64,000 bases of DNA from assembly GCF_009914755.1 (NCBI RefSeq), contig NC_060929.1. One strand, given 5' to 3'. The position numbers and the translations under genes are program-made. Shown here piece after piece: positions 26,011-34,300 of this stretch. The notes beneath the pieces are model-generated. The model was not told the origin of the DNA. It did no database searches and saw only the letters and a list, made by a program, of their open reading frames with translations. The stretch's first letter is position 1; each line of letters starts with the position of its first letter. The stretch is from the human T2T-CHM13v2.0 reference genome, Homo sapiens.

Positions 26011-27269
26011 GTACAGGGTGACATCAGCAAGACTTTTCCAGCTGCTGCTTGAGGGTCTGACACCAGGGAGTTCTAATTTCTGGAGGGATCCAAAAAACAG
26101 GAGTAGGAATTTGCATTTTTTATTCTCTATGCCCTTTTGGGGCACCTCCCTTTATCTGCTTGGCTGGGAAACCATGGTTTTTCCCTTGCTGAGGAGACCC
26201 ACTCATAAGGCAAAGGGCTGTATGGGCCTCTTATCATGAACATATAAATGAACAAATTGTGTGTGTATGTGTGTATGTTGTGCATGTGTTTGAACAATTA
26301 TTAAATTCAGCACACAGTGTCTGCCCTGAACCAGCACATTACACCAGGGAGTAGATACTCCAGGGACTCCCAAAACACCCACACTTTGGAAGCAGAATGG
26401 TCCAAAGTTGTAACCAAAGTTGATCATCCCGTGTGGGATGATCAACACTATGTTTGAAATGCTTGTTTTTTGGTGCTGTAAAGAAATAGCACTTGAACAT
26501 AAATTTAATTTTCTCAGCAAGGCCATTTTTATACTTTCTGCAGAAAGGGTACACTCGCCAGCAGTTTTGCCACAAGAGTACACTGAACAAAGGAGACAGG
26601 GTCATTTATAACTTGATGCGTCCACCTTACTGCTGTGTCTGGTTTCTATTGGCTGGAACAGGACTTCACATTCTGTATTTGTCTTGATTGGCTAGGAACT
26701 TAGAACTTTTTAAAAGGGGCAAAGGCAGAGGAGAACAAAGGAAGGAGGTAGTAACTTGTGGAATGCTGAGAAAGGTAAAAACACCTTCAAATAAGGAAGA
26801 GGAACAGGCAATGACCTAATGCTTGCTTGGACCAGTATAAGCATGCCAGGGCAAATATTTAGGCTAAATTGTGGGAGCTAAGAACATAAAGTACATTGAT
26901 TTCTTTATTACGGCTAACAGATATTTAAGGATGTTAGCACAGGTCTTTGAATAAATTTTCCTTCTAAGAGAAGTTACTATTTATTCCTAATTAGATGAGG
27001 AGGAAAGTCTTTGAAGAGGAACCTCTACTTTACTTTTCACAATTCCTTCTCTTTTTATTTCATAATTCCTCTTCAAACTTGTTTAATATGTTTTGACTTA
27101 ATTGCTTTATTTGTCTTTCTAAGAGAAGTAATTTTTCTGAATAGGGTGGAGGAGAGTTAGGAGTTAACTCTGTAAGAGTGGCAGAGACAAATTTTTGTAT
27201 AAAACTTTGAAAGCAGGGAATAATAGCCTACAAGAATAAGCACACTAATAACAAAAGCTAACAAGGTGA

Positions 27270-27651
<382 letters not shown>

Positions 27652-27699
27652 GTTTTAATATTTTAGAAAAAGGATTATTTATTTTTGAATTTTTGGCAA

Positions 27700-28360
27700 G
27701 TTTATTGGATAGGGCTGTTAATCCTTGTAGCGCTTTTGTTATAGTTCCATCAGGGCAGTATTATTAGGAACAAAGGTACAATATTGAGTTTTAATTATGA
27801 CACAAACATCTCCTTTTTCTGCTAATATTATATTTAAAGCTATTTTATTTTTCTAGGCCATCTGGCTTAGCTTAGATATCTCTTTGATGTTTAGCAATCT
27901 CTTTGATGACGTCCTCAGTGTAATGTATGAATTGTTGCTGATTGTAGTAGATATAGTTTATTTAGTCTACATTTTTTTTTATTTAAAGTTACTTACCAGA
28001 AATACGTGGATTCAAATTGTGCAGCTGTTTGATTTTGTGCTTTAAACTTATTTGGCACTTCTCAAAGGACCTTAATAGCATTTATGTAAAACTGAGGATT
28101 AAAGGATTCATAAGGAGTTTCTCTTGGCCTGTGGTGCTTTGTTTTTACTTTTTTAGATTGATGAAATGCCAGGGTGAAGGGGATAGCCAATTGGATTAGA
28201 GCACAAGTACTGCTCCAATTATTTGGCAGAGTGTCCAGTAAAGGTGCTTCACAGTACCACCATACATTTGCTTGGGGATGGCTAAGCATGGACTGATGGG
28301 CAAGCTCTTGGAAAGGCTCGAGCTCCTCGCATCTTTGTGTGCTTCCAAAGAACACCAAAT
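27700..28360 (-). pseudogene. ERV env remnant (SU C-terminus and TM with immunosuppressive domain)
   Basis: Minus-strand translation WWYCEAPLLDTLPNNWSSTCALIQLAIPFTL ... INYIYYNQQQF ... QMA*KNKIALNIILAEKGDVCVIIKTQYCTFVPNNTA. Confidence 0.9.
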
Positions 28361-29339
28361 TTTCCTCTTGCCATGAGATGCATAAAGTAAACTTGGCATT
28401 TAGAGGTGGAAGCTGGATTGCCTTCAGGGGCTTACCAGCAGAGTGTTGAATTTCAGGAAATAGCAGAGAGAGCTTGGCATGATGGATTATCCTAAGTAAT
28501 TGGATTCTGAAAAAGAGCCACCATACAGTCCGTATCTGGTCGATGAGGAGACCATCTGAGTGGAAAGAGGATAATCTGGGCCTCTGGCCTACCGTGCATA
28601 CAAGTTTAATAATCGCTTTTATTTAAAGTGTGAACGGAATATTTAATCCACTCCAGCTACGCATTTGCATCTTGATATTTTGTCTTGATGGCTAAGTTCT
28701 GTCTGTCTTAGATCTCTTATTTTTACAATAGACACTCTAGTTTTATTAGATGTAGGAGCGACCAGTGTGGGATCTAGAACTGAGGCTACTGAAGAAGGGG
28801 AAGATGGGGGTAATAATGCCCGTTTTGTAGAGTTAGTTAAGGTGGAGGTAGTGACAGAGAGAAGGACAGGGTTACATTGATAAGGCTAGCAGTTAGAAGG
28901 GGTAGTCTTTTTAGTGAAATAGATGAAGGGTTTTAGATCTGCACAAACCTTTTTCGTGGAAGTCTAACTTTGCTCCTGAGTAGTTTAAAGGACGTAGTCC
29001 TATTTACTACAAGGTTACCAGGCTGTAGGAGCAGAAAATCAGTGTCTTGGCTGCAGGTGATCACAACGATGAGTGCTAGGGGTAACTGTGTCAATTAGAG
29101 GGCCAGGATATAAATATTTGTGTGAAAAGGCTAACTGTCGTTGATCTTTTACATTTCCACAAGGTATGATAGAGCAAGCATTAAAGGCAATGGTCTGAGG
29201 CAGACTTAGTTACATTAATAACAAAGGAGCTAGTAACAGAATAAGGAAAGAAAAGGAAGCAATATAGAATGTATATGAAAATTAAGCTTTCTTTAACTTA
29301 GTAGGGCTTGATCTTAGTACAGTAACCTAAGATGTTTTC

Positions 29340-29570
29340 TTGACTCGAGTATGGTGGGTCCATTCTTTCTTGGCTGTGCGGATGGCAGTCTCAGTGGTTA
29401 ACAGCATAAAATAGGGTCCTTCCTAGGCTGGCGTGAATTTTTTTTCTATCTTTTGATGAGGATGTGATTTTTAGGCTGGTGCTGGTGCACTGGAAATTCT
29501 AGGGGTGGCACCTGTGCTAAAAGACTTTTAGTTCTGAGGGAAGGGAAAGTGGAAGATAAATTAAGCATAT
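29340..29570 (-). pseudogene. ERV integrase C-terminal remnant (GPY/F motif)
   Basis: Minus-strand translation LLAQVPPLEFPVHQHQPKNHILIKR* ... PA*EGPYFMLLTTETAIRTAKKEWTHHTRVK. Confidence 0.85.
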
Positions 29571-31133
29571 CATTTCTATTGCATATCTTGGGGCTTGAGG
29601 CCTCATGGTGATGCCTCCCACTCCATTCCTTCTCAGCGCCGCCCAGGGTACGTGGCGGCCTTGATCCCTCTTAAGGTCTTGGCCATCTTGTGGCCTTCAC
29701 CGCCCCTGCGCGTTGTGGCCTTGGGGATGAGGGGCCTTGTGACTTACCTGGCCACCTTCAGGCCTTAAGAAAGCTAAACACCATTTTATATTTGACAATG
29801 CTTTTTGTATGATTTTATACGAGATAAGTTAAATTTTACCTTCATATTAATGTGCTATTAATGTTAAACTTAATTTTAATAAAATCTTGTAGACATTATT
29901 TATCCAATTTTAATGTCTGACTATAAGGTAAGATTTTTATAGACTCTTTTTAACCTTTTATAATTTTTGTTAAAGAGCAGGTTAGTGCTTTAAGAAAAAT
30001 CTATTGTGCTTTTATTTTAACGTTCAGTTCACAGAAAAACTGGATGATACCTCTTTAACTTTAGCCAATATGTTTACACACAGAATTTCCTTTACAATTA
30101 ACATTTTAAAACTTGCTTAAACCTTTAAAACAAGTTTTTTAACCTTTTAATATAGGTAAAAATCCATATTCTTATGCCTCCTTATAATCCTGTTATTAAA
30201 AGTATATTTTATTTTTCTTACATACTTTGTACATAAACTGTTTTTAAAATAGTTTTACATTCAGAAGGCCTAATTACTTTTAAATTATACAATATTTCTT
30301 GCATAAATTCCTTTTTATAACTTTCCTTATGACTTTCACAGACAATCTTCAACATGTCTTAACTTTCTGCCTTCCTTTTACACTATTTCTTTTCTTAGTT
30401 TCACCTTCTGGGTCTTTCTTTGATTTCTGTCTCTTCCAGTTTCTCTCTTACTCTTTTATTCTATTTCTCTCTCTCTCATTTGCACTCTTATTTTCCTCTC
30501 TCTCATTTGCATTCTATTTTTCTTTCTCTGTCTGTCATCCTCTGTTTCTTTTTTCCTTTCTGAGTTTTCCTGGTCTTGCAGCTGGTGGGGCTGGGCAAAG
30601 GCATGGGCCTCGCCCCCAAGTATGCGCTGCCATCTATTTCTCCTGTTTTTATTTTTTTCTGATTTCATTTTTTACTTTTTTTTTCCCTTTCTTCCTACAC
30701 TTAGTTTCTCAGGCTGGGTGGGATTTGCACGGCTGCAGTCCTGGCCCTGGGCCTTCACCGGCCTTGAGGCTTGGCAGATGCCTGCCGCAACTTGCAAGAA
30801 TTGTACCTTTTCACCTCTTCTGCTGTCCTCCTGGCACTGGTCCTCACCCTCTTTTTCACACAGAGCTGGGCTGGGGAGAGGGACTTAACTTTAGGTTAGT
30901 TAAGTTAAGGTGCCTGGCTGTCTGGCACCATGCTTGCTGTTTTTGCTCTCTTTCTCTCTGAATTTCCTCTCCTAATTTCTTTTTCCTCTCTGCTGGTCTT
31001 TCCTTTGCCTCTGCCAGCCACCTATGCTGCTGTTTTCCTCCCTCTCCTTCCTCTTCCTCTAGGGGAGCCACCGGGGAGAGGAGCTTAGCCTTTTTCTTTC
31101 CTCGGGAAGAGGGGGAAGGGGAGTTTTGAAAAA

Positions 31134-31177
<44 letters not shown>

Positions 31178-31198
31178 TTTTACTACCAGAGGTTTGTG

Positions 31199-31323
31199 TG
31201 AGGTTCAACCCCCTCTCAATGGGGATTTCTCACCTCTTTTTGAGGTTCAAGCCCCCCTCAATGGGGATTTCTCACCTCTTTTTGAGGTTCAACTTCTACA
31301 GTGGGGATTTCTCACCTCTTTTT
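31199..31323. repeat. Three 42-bp tandem repeats in the proviral leader
   Basis: Unit TGAGGTTCAA...TGGGGATTTCTCACCTCTTTT starting at 31199, 31241 and 31283. Confidence 0.9.
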
Positions 31324-34300
31324 TGACCTCCAAGACATCCTGACTAAGGAATACTTCACTGCCCCCTGTCGCTTTCTTTCCTTAGTCCTGCCCAAGGAAT
31401 GCTTTATCGCCCCTGCAGTTTCTCCCTCCTTGGTATGTCCTAACCAAGGAATGCTTTACCACCCTGCAGCTTTTTTTTTAGTCTTGACTACCAAGGAAAT
31501 AGTTTACTGGCTCTCCTGGTGTTTCTTTCCTTGGTCTGTGCACACAGTTTCCTGGTTTAGGTGATATATGAGGATCTTTTACTCCAGGTCACCGGCCAGT
31601 GTTTTTTCTTTTTTTGCATTGCTGAGAGTCCGGGTTTATTTGTCACAGTGGGTGGGTCTCGAGTCCTTATCCCTGAGGCCACTGCAATGAGGCAGAGGAG
31701 CATGCTCCTTCATGAGAGAGGACTGGAGACCATCCCCAGAGGAGAATGTATCCCTGTACCAGCCACCAAATTGTTTGAAATGCTTGTTCTTCGGTGCCAT
31801 AAAGAAATAGCACCTGAACATAAATTTAATTTTCTCGGCAAGGCCATTTTTATACTTTCTGCAGAAATGTTACACTCGCCAGCAGTTTTGCCACAGGAGT
31901 ACACCGAACAAAGAAGACAAGGTCATTTATAACTTGATGTGTCCACCTTACTACTGTGTCTAGTTTCTATTGGTTGGAACAGGGCTTCACATTCTGTATT
32001 TGTCTTGATTGGCTAGCAATCTAGAACATTTTTAAAAGAGGAAAAGGCAGAGGAGAACAAAAGAAGGAGAAAGTAACTTGTGGAATGCTGATAAAGGTAA
32101 AAACACCTTCAAATAACGAAGAACAGGCTGTGACCTAATGCTTGCTTGGACCAGTATAAACATGCCAGGGCAAATATTTAGGCTAAATTGTAGGAGCTAA
32201 GAACATAAAGTACATTGATTTCTTTATTATGTCTAGCAGATATTTAAGAACGTTAGCACAGGTCTTTGAATAAATTTTGCTTCTAAGAGAAGTTACTATT
32301 TATTCCTAATTAGATGGGGTGGAAAGTCTTCGAAGAGGAACTTCTACTTTACTTTTCACAACTGTATGAACCGGTTACAGAAAAGAGAAATGTTCTTTAG
32401 AAAGTGACAATCCTTATGGAGAAAGTGGAAAAATCCTGAAATTTACTGCCACACATGCATACTTTCAGAAATTTGCATAATTGTAGAACTCTTCTTCCCA
32501 TTTGATCACCCCACCCCATCTTTTTGTTCTTTATTTACTATTATTTCAGAGGGATTCAGGAAAACAAGAGAGATAAATGCATGAATTCCACTCTACACTG
32601 TGCTATGGTGCCAAATTAAGTCCACTTAGTTGGTGAATTTAAATGGTTTAAAACAACAGTAAAGGGGAGGAGATGTGCTGTAGAAGAAACTGCTTCAGTA
32701 TCATGAAGTGATTGATAGAAATAGTAGATTACCATTCCAGAGACTGAAGATAAATTTCATGAACACTTCTAATGGATGACTTGGGTCTGGACCTAACAGA
32801 ATCATTGGAGTCCTTCCTAGAGATGACAGCAATCTTTGTTTCCTACAATTCTTGGTTCTTCCAAGATCCAGCAATAGGGTGTTGATGGTTTAAGACATAA
32901 AGACAATATAATTCTTACTTTCATCTCATTTAATCTTAGAGGCATTTGGCCAAGCTATTTTAGTTTAGGTTCTACAAAAGCAATGCCCCCAAAACAAGGA
33001 CTTGGCTACAGATAGATTATCCTGTGGGTGATCCTGCCTTATTTAACTGGGGCTCAATCCAACACGCATATGCCCCCAAATTGTCCAACTGGGACAATGT
33101 GGGCAGCTTGGACCTGGCTCCCAACCCACATTGGTAAAGGTACCCCCCAAATATTTCCTCCTCTCTACTTCTAGGCTGAACATGCACACTGGGCAAATGG
33201 GCTCTCTTGGATCTGAAGACTGCTCTACAGCAGAAAAGCAGAGAGACATGTTGGGAGGACACCTAATTCAAGTTAATAGAGTTGGCTGGCCAGTTTACAG
33301 ACTCTCTCTCTTTCCCTCCCTTGTCAACTTAAGAATTTGGGCAATTGATTCAAAATTCTTGCAAAGGCAGATTTGGGTAACTAGGGTCTATTGCCAGGCT
33401 CTATTGATAACAGAGTACATCCTCACTGAGCTTCCTCCTCTGGGTACCAGCAAGCTTCTGGTGTCAATGGTGGGGAGGTCATTATGTGCTCAGGTCCACA
33501 TCTCTGATGGATAAATATATTGAATATTACCCATGGATACCCAGCTAAAGTCAGCAGCATGAAGAGATGAAGAGTTCAAAAGAGGCAACGACTGAGAAGA
33601 GCTAGGATGAAAGAGAACCAGCCTACAACAGATGGGAAGTAACCCTTGTTCCTGGTCATTCCGTCCTCTGTGTCCCTTCTGTCAGGGACCTAGATACACA
33701 GCAGGCATGCCCCTGTACCCCTGCCCACTACCCAGTCTCTACGTGAGTTGGATAAGGAGTACTTTATTCTATAGTCTTGGATGAACATCAGCTAGAACAA
33801 TGGAATAATAATGAGAATTTAAATAACTAAATTCTTCAGGATTTCTTGAATGCCTACACATACATTATCTACTTCAACTTCATAAAGCCTGAATGAAATG
33901 AAAATAACTTTAAGATAATGAATCTCAGACACAATGGAGGAAAAGCTCCAGACACTGGCTGAGGAGGACCTAGGACCTCAGCCCATTTGCAGGACACTTT
34001 CCTCTTCTATCAGACACCCATGCTCCCCTCCATCTGCAGCCTCCCACACCCAGGGACTAACCATCAGAAAAACGCCTAGTATCTCTTCCCTCACTTGCGA
34101 ATTCCGCACTAAATGCATCTCTTCTTGCCACCTTTTACTTAACTGGCTGCACTTGACTCAGCCCCCTCTGCTCCTACTGTCTTTCCAAGAAAGTCACATC
34201 TGATGGATGTACATTTTTGGGGTTTTGGAAACCGTTGACTGTTGCCACAACAAGGAGGTAAGATGCGCTGGCAAAATCCTTTGGCACCTGCCTTGCTGTG

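What the first reader, a model, noticed from the sequence alone, without database searches (positions are those of the whole stretch)
27720..29570. APOBEC3-type G-to-A hypermutation of the HERV-I provirus
Seen: on the proviral sense (minus) strand, five positions expected to be Trp are stops reachable by G-to-A. TAG occurs at 27853-55, 29423-25 (the W of WEGPY) and 29446-48; TAA occurs at 27962-64 and 27993-95. The TM immunosuppressive domain reads *KNKIALNIILAEKGDVCVIIKTQYC against a recalled family consensus WENRIALDMILAEKGGVCVMIGTQCC, and every difference is explained by G-to-A (E>K, R>K, D>N, M>I, G>D, G>K, C>Y). The same bias appears in SU and integrase. Most changes are in GA or GG context rather than CpG. 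Established: APOBEC3 enzymes deaminate minus-strand cDNA, leaving GG>AG (A3G) or GA>AA (A3D/F/H-type) marks. Inference: this is a fossil record of ancient antiviral editing, either in this copy or in its progenitor.
Basis: partly seen in the sequence, partly recalled or inferred. Interest (0 to 1): 0.7.

Follow-up and report, generated by a model that had tools for sequence, protein, structure and literature searches.

The report
APOBEC3-edited HERV-I provirus, mostly inherited edits
This broken ancient retrovirus upstream of IRGM carries the strand-specific G-to-A scars of host antiviral DNA editing; most were inherited from an already edited parent that still made at least a dozen copies, a known kind of fossil with an instructive family history.

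Summary
All five stop codons sit where stated.

In 29570-27720, compared with three less-altered relatives, the window has G>A at 56 of 238 G sites and C>T at 26 of 341 C sites, CpG excluded (p=1e-7).

Two layers of editing are visible.
- **Inherited layer.** 40 of the 56 G>A changes are shared with at least 80% of 12 sibling copies on other chromosomes. All 13 siblings share the window's odd internal structure, so an already edited progenitor multiplied. Between the groups there are 38 G>A against 2 A>G. By context: GA 15/36, GG 9/30, GT 5/36, GC 0/47.
- **Window's own layer.** GG>AG at 24 of 130 sites, against 13 of 267 for the mirror class. All six changes shared by both LTRs but absent from siblings are G>A, so they predate integration.

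APOBEC3-type editing is supported. The kind is already known: genome-wide catalogues list edited HERVIP10FH and LTR10 elements. The family has a tRNA-Ile primer site. Whether Repbase would call it HERVI or HERVIP could not be tested.

The parts
31772..32361 (-). 5' LTR of the provirus
   Evidence: Direct repeat of 26451-27042. 41 differences in 589 aligned bases, 7.0%. Followed by the primer binding site.
31751..31768 (-). Primer binding site of tRNA-Ile type, decayed
   Evidence: 15 of 18 bases agree with sibling L037. 15 nt of the L037 site match the genome exactly at 14 places. Of two places fetched, one is the 3' end of a tRNA-Ile(AAT) gene and one gave no gene.
31199..31322 (-). Three 40-42-nt tandem units in the leader
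   Evidence: The same unit gives many staggered, overlapping matches over about 750-850 nt in siblings L031 and L034.
29767..30373 (-). About 607-nt dispersed repeat embedded in the provirus, probably an LTR of a related element
   Evidence: At least 30 dispersed matches at 88-90% identity. Present upstream of the integrase tail in relatives L057, L062, L064 and L065.
29336..29577 (-). Remnant of the integrase C-terminal tail, with stops at 29446-48 and 29423-25
   Evidence: Conserved in distant relatives. In L039 it lies just downstream of weak integrase-core matches (E 2.8e-4, below Pfam's cut-off) and of an RNase H match (E 3.8e-16). Codon comparison.
28100..29335 (-). env surface-unit remnant, including a 186-codon open stretch at 28062-28622
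   Evidence: Between the window's clade and the less-altered siblings, G>A at 16 of 114 G sites against A>G at 0 of 239.
28820..28827 (-). Site of a private deletion of about 67 nt
   Evidence: Siblings aligned across this point mostly hold about 75 nt between window 28828 and 28819; the window holds 8.
27661..28099 (-). env transmembrane-unit remnant with the immunosuppressive domain (27855-27778) and stops at 27993-95, 27962-64 and 27853-55
   Evidence: Relatives L052 and L039 match Pfam TLV_coat over this domain (E 2.5e-6 and 4.1e-5). The window's own translation matches nothing at E<=1. G>A at 15 of 40 G sites on the stem.
27323..27650 (-). Alu inserted into the transmembrane-unit region, private to this copy
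   Evidence: Sibling alignments skip it, with a 14-nt overlap at the edges. Alu-like sequence with an A-rich tail.
26451..27042 (-). 3' LTR
   Evidence: The flanks give a possible 4-nt target duplication with 3 of 4 bases identical.

Best explanation
The element at 26451-32361 (minus strand) is a defective, mosaic gamma-like provirus of the HERV-I/HERVIP kind. It keeps two LTRs, a tRNA-Ile primer site, a leader, foreign filler, the tail of integrase and a dead env.

Its sense strand records cytidine deamination of minus-strand cDNA by APOBEC3 enzymes during reverse transcription. The record was laid down in at least two episodes.

1. An ancestor that already had this mosaic structure was edited heavily. 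About one G in five changed, and nearly two in five in the transmembrane part, in GA and GG contexts. That killed env.
2. The edited genome was still packaged and copied, presumably by proteins of a helper virus. It gave at least 13 dispersed copies, of which the window is one.
3. In the replication cycle or cycles leading to the window's own integration, a second, milder episode hit almost only GG sites, as APOBEC3G does.

After integration, roughly 17-37 million years ago by LTR divergence, ordinary symmetric decay, an Alu insertion and a small deletion followed.

Shown: the strand asymmetry, direction, contexts, sharing among copies and pre-integration timing.
Inferred: the enzymes involved, the helper virus and the date.
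For: **Asymmetry and direction**
- Window's clade (A1) against the three less-altered siblings (A2): 38 G>A, 2 A>G, 12 C>T, 9 T>C and 2 transversions in 1325 columns.
- With distant relatives as a second outgroup, 15 of 18 env changes and 4 of 6 integrase-tail changes are G>A.

**Context**
- GA 15/36, GG 9/30, GT 5/36, GC 0/47. GR against GY gives p=5e-6.

**Pairwise tests between natural copies**
- Against L039: GRD 66/143 versus control 29/183, p=2e-9. Raw G>A 106 against A>G 30, and C>T 42 against T>C 38.

**The bias is present in every part**
- TM 15/40, SU 16/114, integrase tail 7/24, 3' end 5/18, LTRs 9/56 and 11/59.
- It is highest just upstream of the 3' LTR, as expected for the stretch of minus strand that stays single-stranded longest.

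**Sharing**
- 40 of 56 G>A in 29570-27720 are shared with at least 80% of siblings.
- All 13 A1 siblings align across the junction at 29577 into the same upstream filler. The 3 A2 copies do not, and the one tested, L039, carries RNase H and a weak integrase-core match there.

**Window's own layer**
- G>A 45/697 against C>T 32/948.
- GG 24/130, GA 4/142, GC 2/174, GT 2/156; mirror class CC>CT 13/267, p=3e-5.
- The GA:GG balance differs from the stem, p=5e-4.

**Timing**
- All 6 changes shared by both window LTRs and absent from siblings are G>A, 5 of them before G. The 41 differences between the LTRs are of mixed types.

**Controls**
- Of the 13 A1 siblings, 9 show no G>A excess on their own branch.
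- L032, L043 and L045 show independent excesses, and L041 shows one by context only.
Against: - With every column holding a G/A difference removed (467 of 1078), the env tree no longer separates the window's clade from the less-altered siblings. In env, common descent of the edits therefore rests on the edits themselves plus the shared structure outside env.
- Even the distant relatives are G-poor and A-rich: 16% G and 33% A at their shared sites. Part of the A-richness is family-wide and is not explained by the two episodes measured here.
- Within the stated range, the window's private G>A count (10) equals C>T (12) in raw numbers. The excess appears only per available site and in GG context, 5/26 against 6/114.
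- Only the best 40 of 442 first-look candidates were scored when siblings were collected, so the family is sampled, not complete.
- No enzyme can be named from sequence alone.
Confidence: 0.85

Rival explanations
1. Each copy was edited independently, and the shared A's are repeated hits at the same APOBEC3 hot spots. No edited progenitor ever multiplied.
For: Without G/A columns, the env tree does not recover the window's clade. Recurrent hits do occur: 19 of the window's 45 lineage-specific G>A sites are also A in the separately hypermutated sibling L045, and 8 in L032.
Against: 34 G sites read A in 80-100% of the clade's copies. That includes 9 of 13 siblings that show no G>A excess of their own. 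All 13 copies with the mosaic structure carry the set, and none of the 3 copies with the other structure does. About 25 fixed differences that are not G>A also separate the two groups.
Confidence: 0.07
2. The G>A changes are reverse-transcriptase errors caused by unbalanced nucleotide pools (low dCTP), not enzyme-driven deamination.
For: Such errors would also be strand-specific and pre-integration. G-to-A hypermutation in GA context was once ascribed to this cause (recalled, no call).
Against: Two episodes with different and sharp neighbour rules (GA plus GG with GC spared, then GG only) fit the known preferences of APOBEC3 enzymes. Human ERVs as a class show GG and GA strand bias that is ascribed to APOBEC3 (PMC6955324, passages).
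Confidence: 0.04
3. Ordinary decay after integration (CpG deamination or transcription-linked asymmetry), or A-to-G editing by ADAR in the relatives, produces the apparent bias.
For: The element is old: its LTRs are 7% apart. CpG sites have decayed so far that only a single pair appears among the sites scored in the provirus.
Against: CpG sites were excluded. The changes are shared by copies on different chromosomes and by both LTRs. LTR-specific changes are of mixed types. A second outgroup fixes the direction as G to A. The mirror strand shows no effect in 20 of 23 pairwise tests.
Confidence: 0.02

Closest known systems
Edited ERV1 elements in genome-wide catalogues of APOBEC editing (Knisbacher and Levanon 2016, PMC4866542; Ito et al. 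2020, PMC6955324)
   Same: Clusters of sense-strand G>A in human ERVs read as APOBEC editing. The first paper's supplement shows an edited HERVIP10FH-int element and an edited LTR10D solo LTR. The second reports GG and GA strand bias in human ERV subfamilies (passages).
   Different: Those scans compare copies pairwise or against a consensus, and by their own account tend to find recently hyperedited single elements (section 15). Here most edits sit on the stem of a clade, so a subfamily consensus would already contain them. I did not find this locus named. One supplementary file could not be searched and the other was cut when stored.
Hypermutated HERV-K(HML2) proviruses (Esnault et al. 2008, PMC2531183, seen as a search listing; Lee et al. 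2008, recalled)
   Same: Single human proviruses with G>A traces of APOBEC3 editing acquired before integration.
   Different: A different ERV class. As far as I recall, those are isolated dead-end copies. Here the edited genome multiplied.
Endogenous murine leukaemia viruses edited by mouse APOBEC3 (Jern et al. 2007, PMC2041998)
   Same: Gamma-type proviruses with a G>A to C>T ratio of 3:1 to 9:1, ascribed to deamination of single-stranded DNA.
   Different: There the mutations are ascribed to the last cycle before each integration (one passage seen). Here that applies only to the smaller GG layer.
A-rich base composition of the HERVIP group (Vargiu et al. 2016, PMC4724089)
   Same: The paper notes an A frequency above 31% in HERVIP and suggests APOBEC influence. 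It also notes frequent mosaic forms that reintegrated (passages).
   Different: Only composition is given there. No strand, direction, context or lineage analysis appears in the passages I saw.

Membership tests
APOBEC3-edited (G-to-A hypermutated) endogenous retrovirus | Excess of G>A over C>T on the sense strand outside CpG | tested here: met
   56/238 against 26/341 in the stated range. 38 against 12 on the stem. Pairwise GRD tests significant for 23 of 23 outgroup copies; mirror strand for 3 of 23.
APOBEC3-edited (G-to-A hypermutated) endogenous retrovirus | Direction is G to A, not A to G in the relatives | tested here: met
   Where less-altered siblings and distant relatives agree, 15 of 18 env changes and 4 of 6 integrase-tail changes are G>A.
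APOBEC3-edited (G-to-A hypermutated) endogenous retrovirus | Neighbour preference GG and/or GA, with GC avoided | tested here: met
   Stem: GA 15/36, GG 9/30, GT 5/36, GC 0/47. Window lineage: GG 24/130, GA 4/142, GC 2/174, GT 2/156.
APOBEC3-edited (G-to-A hypermutated) endogenous retrovirus | Changes arose before integration | tested here: met
   Shared by dispersed copies. All 6 changes common to both LTRs but absent from siblings are G>A.
APOBEC3-edited (G-to-A hypermutated) endogenous retrovirus | An APOBEC3 enzyme did it | not testable with these tools
   Needs biochemical assays. Sequence gives only the context signature.
HERV-I / HERVIP (class I, gamma-like) | Primer binding site complementary to tRNA-Ile | tested here: met
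   15 nt of sibling L037's site are the complement of the 3' end of a tRNA-Ile(AAT) gene. That held for 1 of 2 fetched places. My cut would have truncated a tRNA at the other. The window's own site keeps 15 of 18 bases.
HERV-I / HERVIP (class I, gamma-like) | Gamma-type Env with an immunosuppressive domain | tested here: inconclusive
   Pfam TLV_coat is above its cut-off in relatives L052 and L039. The window's own translation gives no match at E<=1. By DNA homology the stretch is the same.
HERV-I / HERVIP (class I, gamma-like) | Match to the curated HERVI or HERVIP10F/FH internal model and an LTR10-type LTR | not testable with these tools
No Dfam or Repbase library was on hand.
HERV-I / HERVIP (class I, gamma-like) | Placement by pol (reverse transcriptase) phylogeny | not testable with these tools
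   Pfam finds no pol domain in the window copy. L039 keeps RNase H and a weak integrase-core match.

The most novel reading that the evidence does not exclude
Editing did not end this lineage. A heavily edited, env-dead mosaic without gag or most of pol founded a subfamily of at least 13 copies mobilised by a helper virus. The lineage was then edited again at least once, with a switch from GA-plus-GG to GG-only targets. One provirus would thus hold a dated, layered record of changing APOBEC3 activity in catarrhine ancestors. It would also show editing acting as a source of a new non-autonomous ERV subfamily that consensus-based scans cannot see.
Probability: 0.55. Interest if true: 0.55.

Novelty: new member of a known kind. 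Interest (0 to 1): 0.4.

Why it matters
APOBEC3 footprints in human ERVs are well documented, so the locus itself adds one more case. Three points are worth keeping.

- **Method.** Most edits are on the stem of a clade. A comparison with a subfamily consensus would miss them and would overstate the subfamily's age and distinctness.
- **Biology.** A genome that editing had inactivated went on multiplying, which bears on how effective editing is against elements that rely on a helper virus.
- **Layering.** The two layers have different neighbour rules. With orthologues from other primates they could be dated.

The provirus also appears to lie inside the common 20-kb deletion upstream of IRGM, so its presence would vary among people. 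My mapping of that deletion rests partly on recalled coordinates.

Tried and rejected
- **Pfam on the window.** Three whole-length frames with X at stops and four shorter pieces gave no family. The env identity rests on relatives and DNA homology.
- **Raw private counts in the stated range.** G>A 10 against C>T 12 at first looked like a refutation. Per-site rates, context and comparison of groups showed that the bias sits mainly on the shared stem.
- **Whole sibling group against distant relatives.** The asymmetry was only mild, 18 against 8. The sibling group mixes edited and unedited copies, and splitting it resolved this.
- **Window and L032 sharing a private edited ancestor.** The overlap is 8 of 45 sites. 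My rough estimate (not computed in a call) is that this is about what hot-spot recurrence would give. Not pursued.
- **Tree without G/A columns.** It did not recover the clade. This is reported as evidence against my reading.
- **The purine-rich filler at 31480-29600 as hypermutated gag or pol.** Rejected. It is G-rich as well as A-rich, has no counterpart in L039, L040 or L046, and holds a dispersed 607-nt repeat.
- **McCarroll et al. 2008** is not held.
- **Literature searches** found no paper describing this locus or an edited HERV-I sublineage that multiplied.

Full report
**What is there**

On the minus strand the window holds a provirus bounded by two 590-nt LTRs, at 32361-31772 and 27042-26451. 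They differ at 41 of 589 aligned bases. A possible 4-nt target duplication has 3 of 4 bases identical.

Three bases after the 5' LTR lies an 18-nt primer binding site. In sibling L037, 15 nt of that site are the exact complement of the 3' end of a tRNA-Ile(AAT) gene. That was shown for one of two places fetched; my cut of the other would have truncated a tRNA. The window's own site keeps 15 of 18 bases.

The 4.7-kb interior is not a normal retroviral genome. In order it holds:
- a leader with three 40-42-nt tandem units;
- about 1.6 kb of purine-rich filler that includes a discrete 607-nt dispersed repeat;
- the last 240 nt or so of integrase;
- a dead env;
- a private Alu at 27650-27323 and a private deletion of about 67 nt at 28820-28827.

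Pfam finds nothing in the window's own translation. Two less-altered relatives match the gamma-type Env family TLV_coat over the immunosuppressive domain. One of them, L039, has RNase H and a weak integrase-core match just upstream of the point where it starts to resemble the window.

**The observation**

I fetched 16 siblings from the same genome (74-90% identical over the stated range) and 20 distant relatives (about 72%). At four of the five stops the distant relatives mostly read TGG, in 10 to 16 of 20 copies. At 29446-48 they are mixed.

One claimed difference (G>K) is not a difference, because K is common in relatives.

**The test**

No family consensus was used. I compared natural copies pairwise and counted columns where groups of copies agree among themselves.

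In 29570-27720, at non-CpG sites where the three least-altered siblings agree, the window shows:

| Change | Hits / sites |
|---|---|
| G>A | 56 / 238 |
| C>T | 26 / 341 |
| A>G | 12 / 411 |
| T>C | 13 / 425 |
| Transversions | 18 |

G>A against C>T gives p=1e-7.

A Hypermut-style pairwise test asked whether G followed by R then D is hit more often than other G. It is significant on the sense strand against all 23 outgroup copies. For example, against L039 the counts are 66/143 versus 29/183, p=2e-9. On the mirror strand it is significant against 3 of 23.

**Who carries the edits**

Of the window's 56 G>A changes in the stated range:
- 40 are shared with at least 80% of 12 siblings;
- 8 with 25-79%;
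- 3 with fewer than 25%;
- 4 are in the window only;
- 1 could not be classed.

Four of the five stops are shared with siblings (5 to 10 of 16 aligned copies at each). The one at 29423-25 is shared with only 1 of 16.

An env tree puts the window and 11 siblings in one clade (A1). L039, L040 and L046 (A2) branch just outside it. L042 and L044 were left out of that tree for short coverage.

Between A1 and A2 there are 38 G>A, 2 A>G, 12 C>T, 9 T>C and 2 transversions in 1325 columns. Where A2 and the distant relatives agree, 15 of 18 env changes and 4 of 6 integrase-tail changes are G>A. By context: GA 15/36, GG 9/30, GT 5/36, GC 0/47.

The bias is present in every part of the element:

| Part | G>A hits / G sites |
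|---|---|
| Transmembrane unit | 15 / 40 |
| Surface unit | 16 / 114 |
| Integrase tail | 7 / 24 |
| 3' end | 5 / 18 |
| 3' LTR | 9 / 56 |
| 5' LTR | 11 / 59 |

It is strongest just upstream of the 3' LTR (TM against SU, p=0.003). Established knowledge of reverse transcription predicts this, since that stretch of minus strand stays single-stranded longest.

**Is the clade real?**

With every column holding a G/A difference removed, the env tree no longer separates A1 from A2. Within env, the clade is therefore defined by the edits themselves.

Independent support comes from structure. All 13 A1 siblings align across the junction at 29577 into the same filler. None of the 3 A2 copies does.

In addition, 9 of the 13 A1 siblings have no G>A excess on their own branch, yet carry the shared set. 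I therefore read the shared edits as inherited from one edited progenitor. I give the rival, repeated independent hits at hot spots, a probability of 0.07.

Sites shared by 25-79% of the clade are also enriched for G>A (20, against 7 C>T). The codon at 27993-95 reads TGG, TAG or TAA in different siblings. Together these suggest more than one round of editing along the way.

**The window's own layer**

I counted sites where the window differs from a base shared by at least 80% of the other 16 copies:
- G>A 45/697 against C>T 32/948 (p=0.004).
- GG 24/130, GA 4/142, GC 2/174, GT 2/156.
- Mirror class CC>CT 13/267 (p=3e-5).

The GA:GG balance differs from that of the stem (p=5e-4).

All six changes that both window LTRs share but siblings lack are G>A, five of them before G. 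The 41 differences between the two LTRs are of mixed types. This layer therefore arose before integration. The decay that followed is symmetric.

**Siblings as controls**

Independent excesses appear in three siblings, with a fourth showing one by context only:
- L032: GG 23/115.
- L043: GA 22/136.
- L041: GA 16/172, significant only in the context test.
- L045: 196 of 556 G sites changed, in all contexts.

The family was thus hit repeatedly and with different signatures.

**Age**

A1 copies with two LTRs are 6.0-7.3% diverged. With neutral rates of 1.0-2.2e-9 per site per year (recalled values), the window's K2P distance of 0.074 gives 17-37 million years.

**Known or new**

Strand-biased G>A in human ERVs, with GG and GA contexts, is established (PMC6955324, passages). 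A genome-wide catalogue shows an edited HERVIP10FH-int element and an edited LTR10D solo LTR (PMC4866542, supplement hits). The A-richness of HERVIP and its frequent reintegrating mosaics are in print (PMC4724089, passages).

Four searches found no description of this locus or of an edited HERV-I sublineage that multiplied. One supplementary file of PMC4866542 could not be searched and the other was cut when stored, so the locus may be listed there.

I rate this a new member of a known kind. Its one less ordinary feature is that the edited genome went on to found a subfamily.

**Limits**

- Siblings are a sample: 40 of 442 candidates were scored.
- HERVI versus HERVIP10F/FH could not be decided without curated models.
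- No enzyme can be named from sequence.
- Even the distant relatives are G-poor (16% G at their shared sites). This background is left unexplained.

Noticed in passing
window 29767-30373 (minus strand): A discrete repeat of about 607 nt sits inside the provirus, with at least 30 dispersed copies at 88-90% identity. It also lies upstream of the integrase tail in distant relatives L057, L062, L064 and L065. In L041 a sibling provirus is inserted into such a repeat. It is probably an LTR of a related element, which would make this provirus a mosaic.
   Followed up: partly
window about 18100-38200: The common 20.1-kb deletion upstream of IRGM linked to Crohn's disease is given as hg19 chr5:150,203,163-150,223,264 (PMC5023681, passage). 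Using hg19 positions of IRGM that I recall, it maps to about this range and would remove the whole provirus. The provirus would then be present or absent among people. The mapping was not verified by a tool.
   Followed up: partly
L045 (G000:C15:29298600-29306700): This sibling is massively G>A mutated on its own branch: 196 of 556 G sites against 22 of 777 C>T. All four contexts are hit (GA 59/104, GT 51/131, GG 39/116, GC 29/139).
   Followed up: partly
L039 1240-3560: This less-altered sibling keeps an RNase H domain (PF00075, E 3.8e-16) and a weak integrase-core match where the window's clade has unrelated purine-rich filler. Its two LTRs differ by only 2.3%, against 6-7% in the window's clade.
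   Followed up: partly
window 31199-31322; L031 and L034: The leader holds 40-42-nt tandem units, three in the window. In siblings L031 and L034 the unit gives many staggered matches over about 750-850 nt, so the array varies in copy number.
   Followed up: no
window 29743-29751 and about 29533-29560 (minus strand): By eye there is a good splice-donor-like motif (CAG followed by GTAAGT) shortly after the 607-nt repeat. A pyrimidine tract ending in CAG lies just before the integrase tail. The layout (repeat, short leader, integrase tail, env) recalls a copy of a spliced env transcript. Not tested.
   Followed up: no
G000:C17:47928724-47930156 and G000:C20:62975554-62977285: Two further loci match the window's clade-specific filler, and one lies next to an exact tRNA-Ile-type primer site. 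They are likely further members of the edited clade but were not analysed.
   Followed up: no
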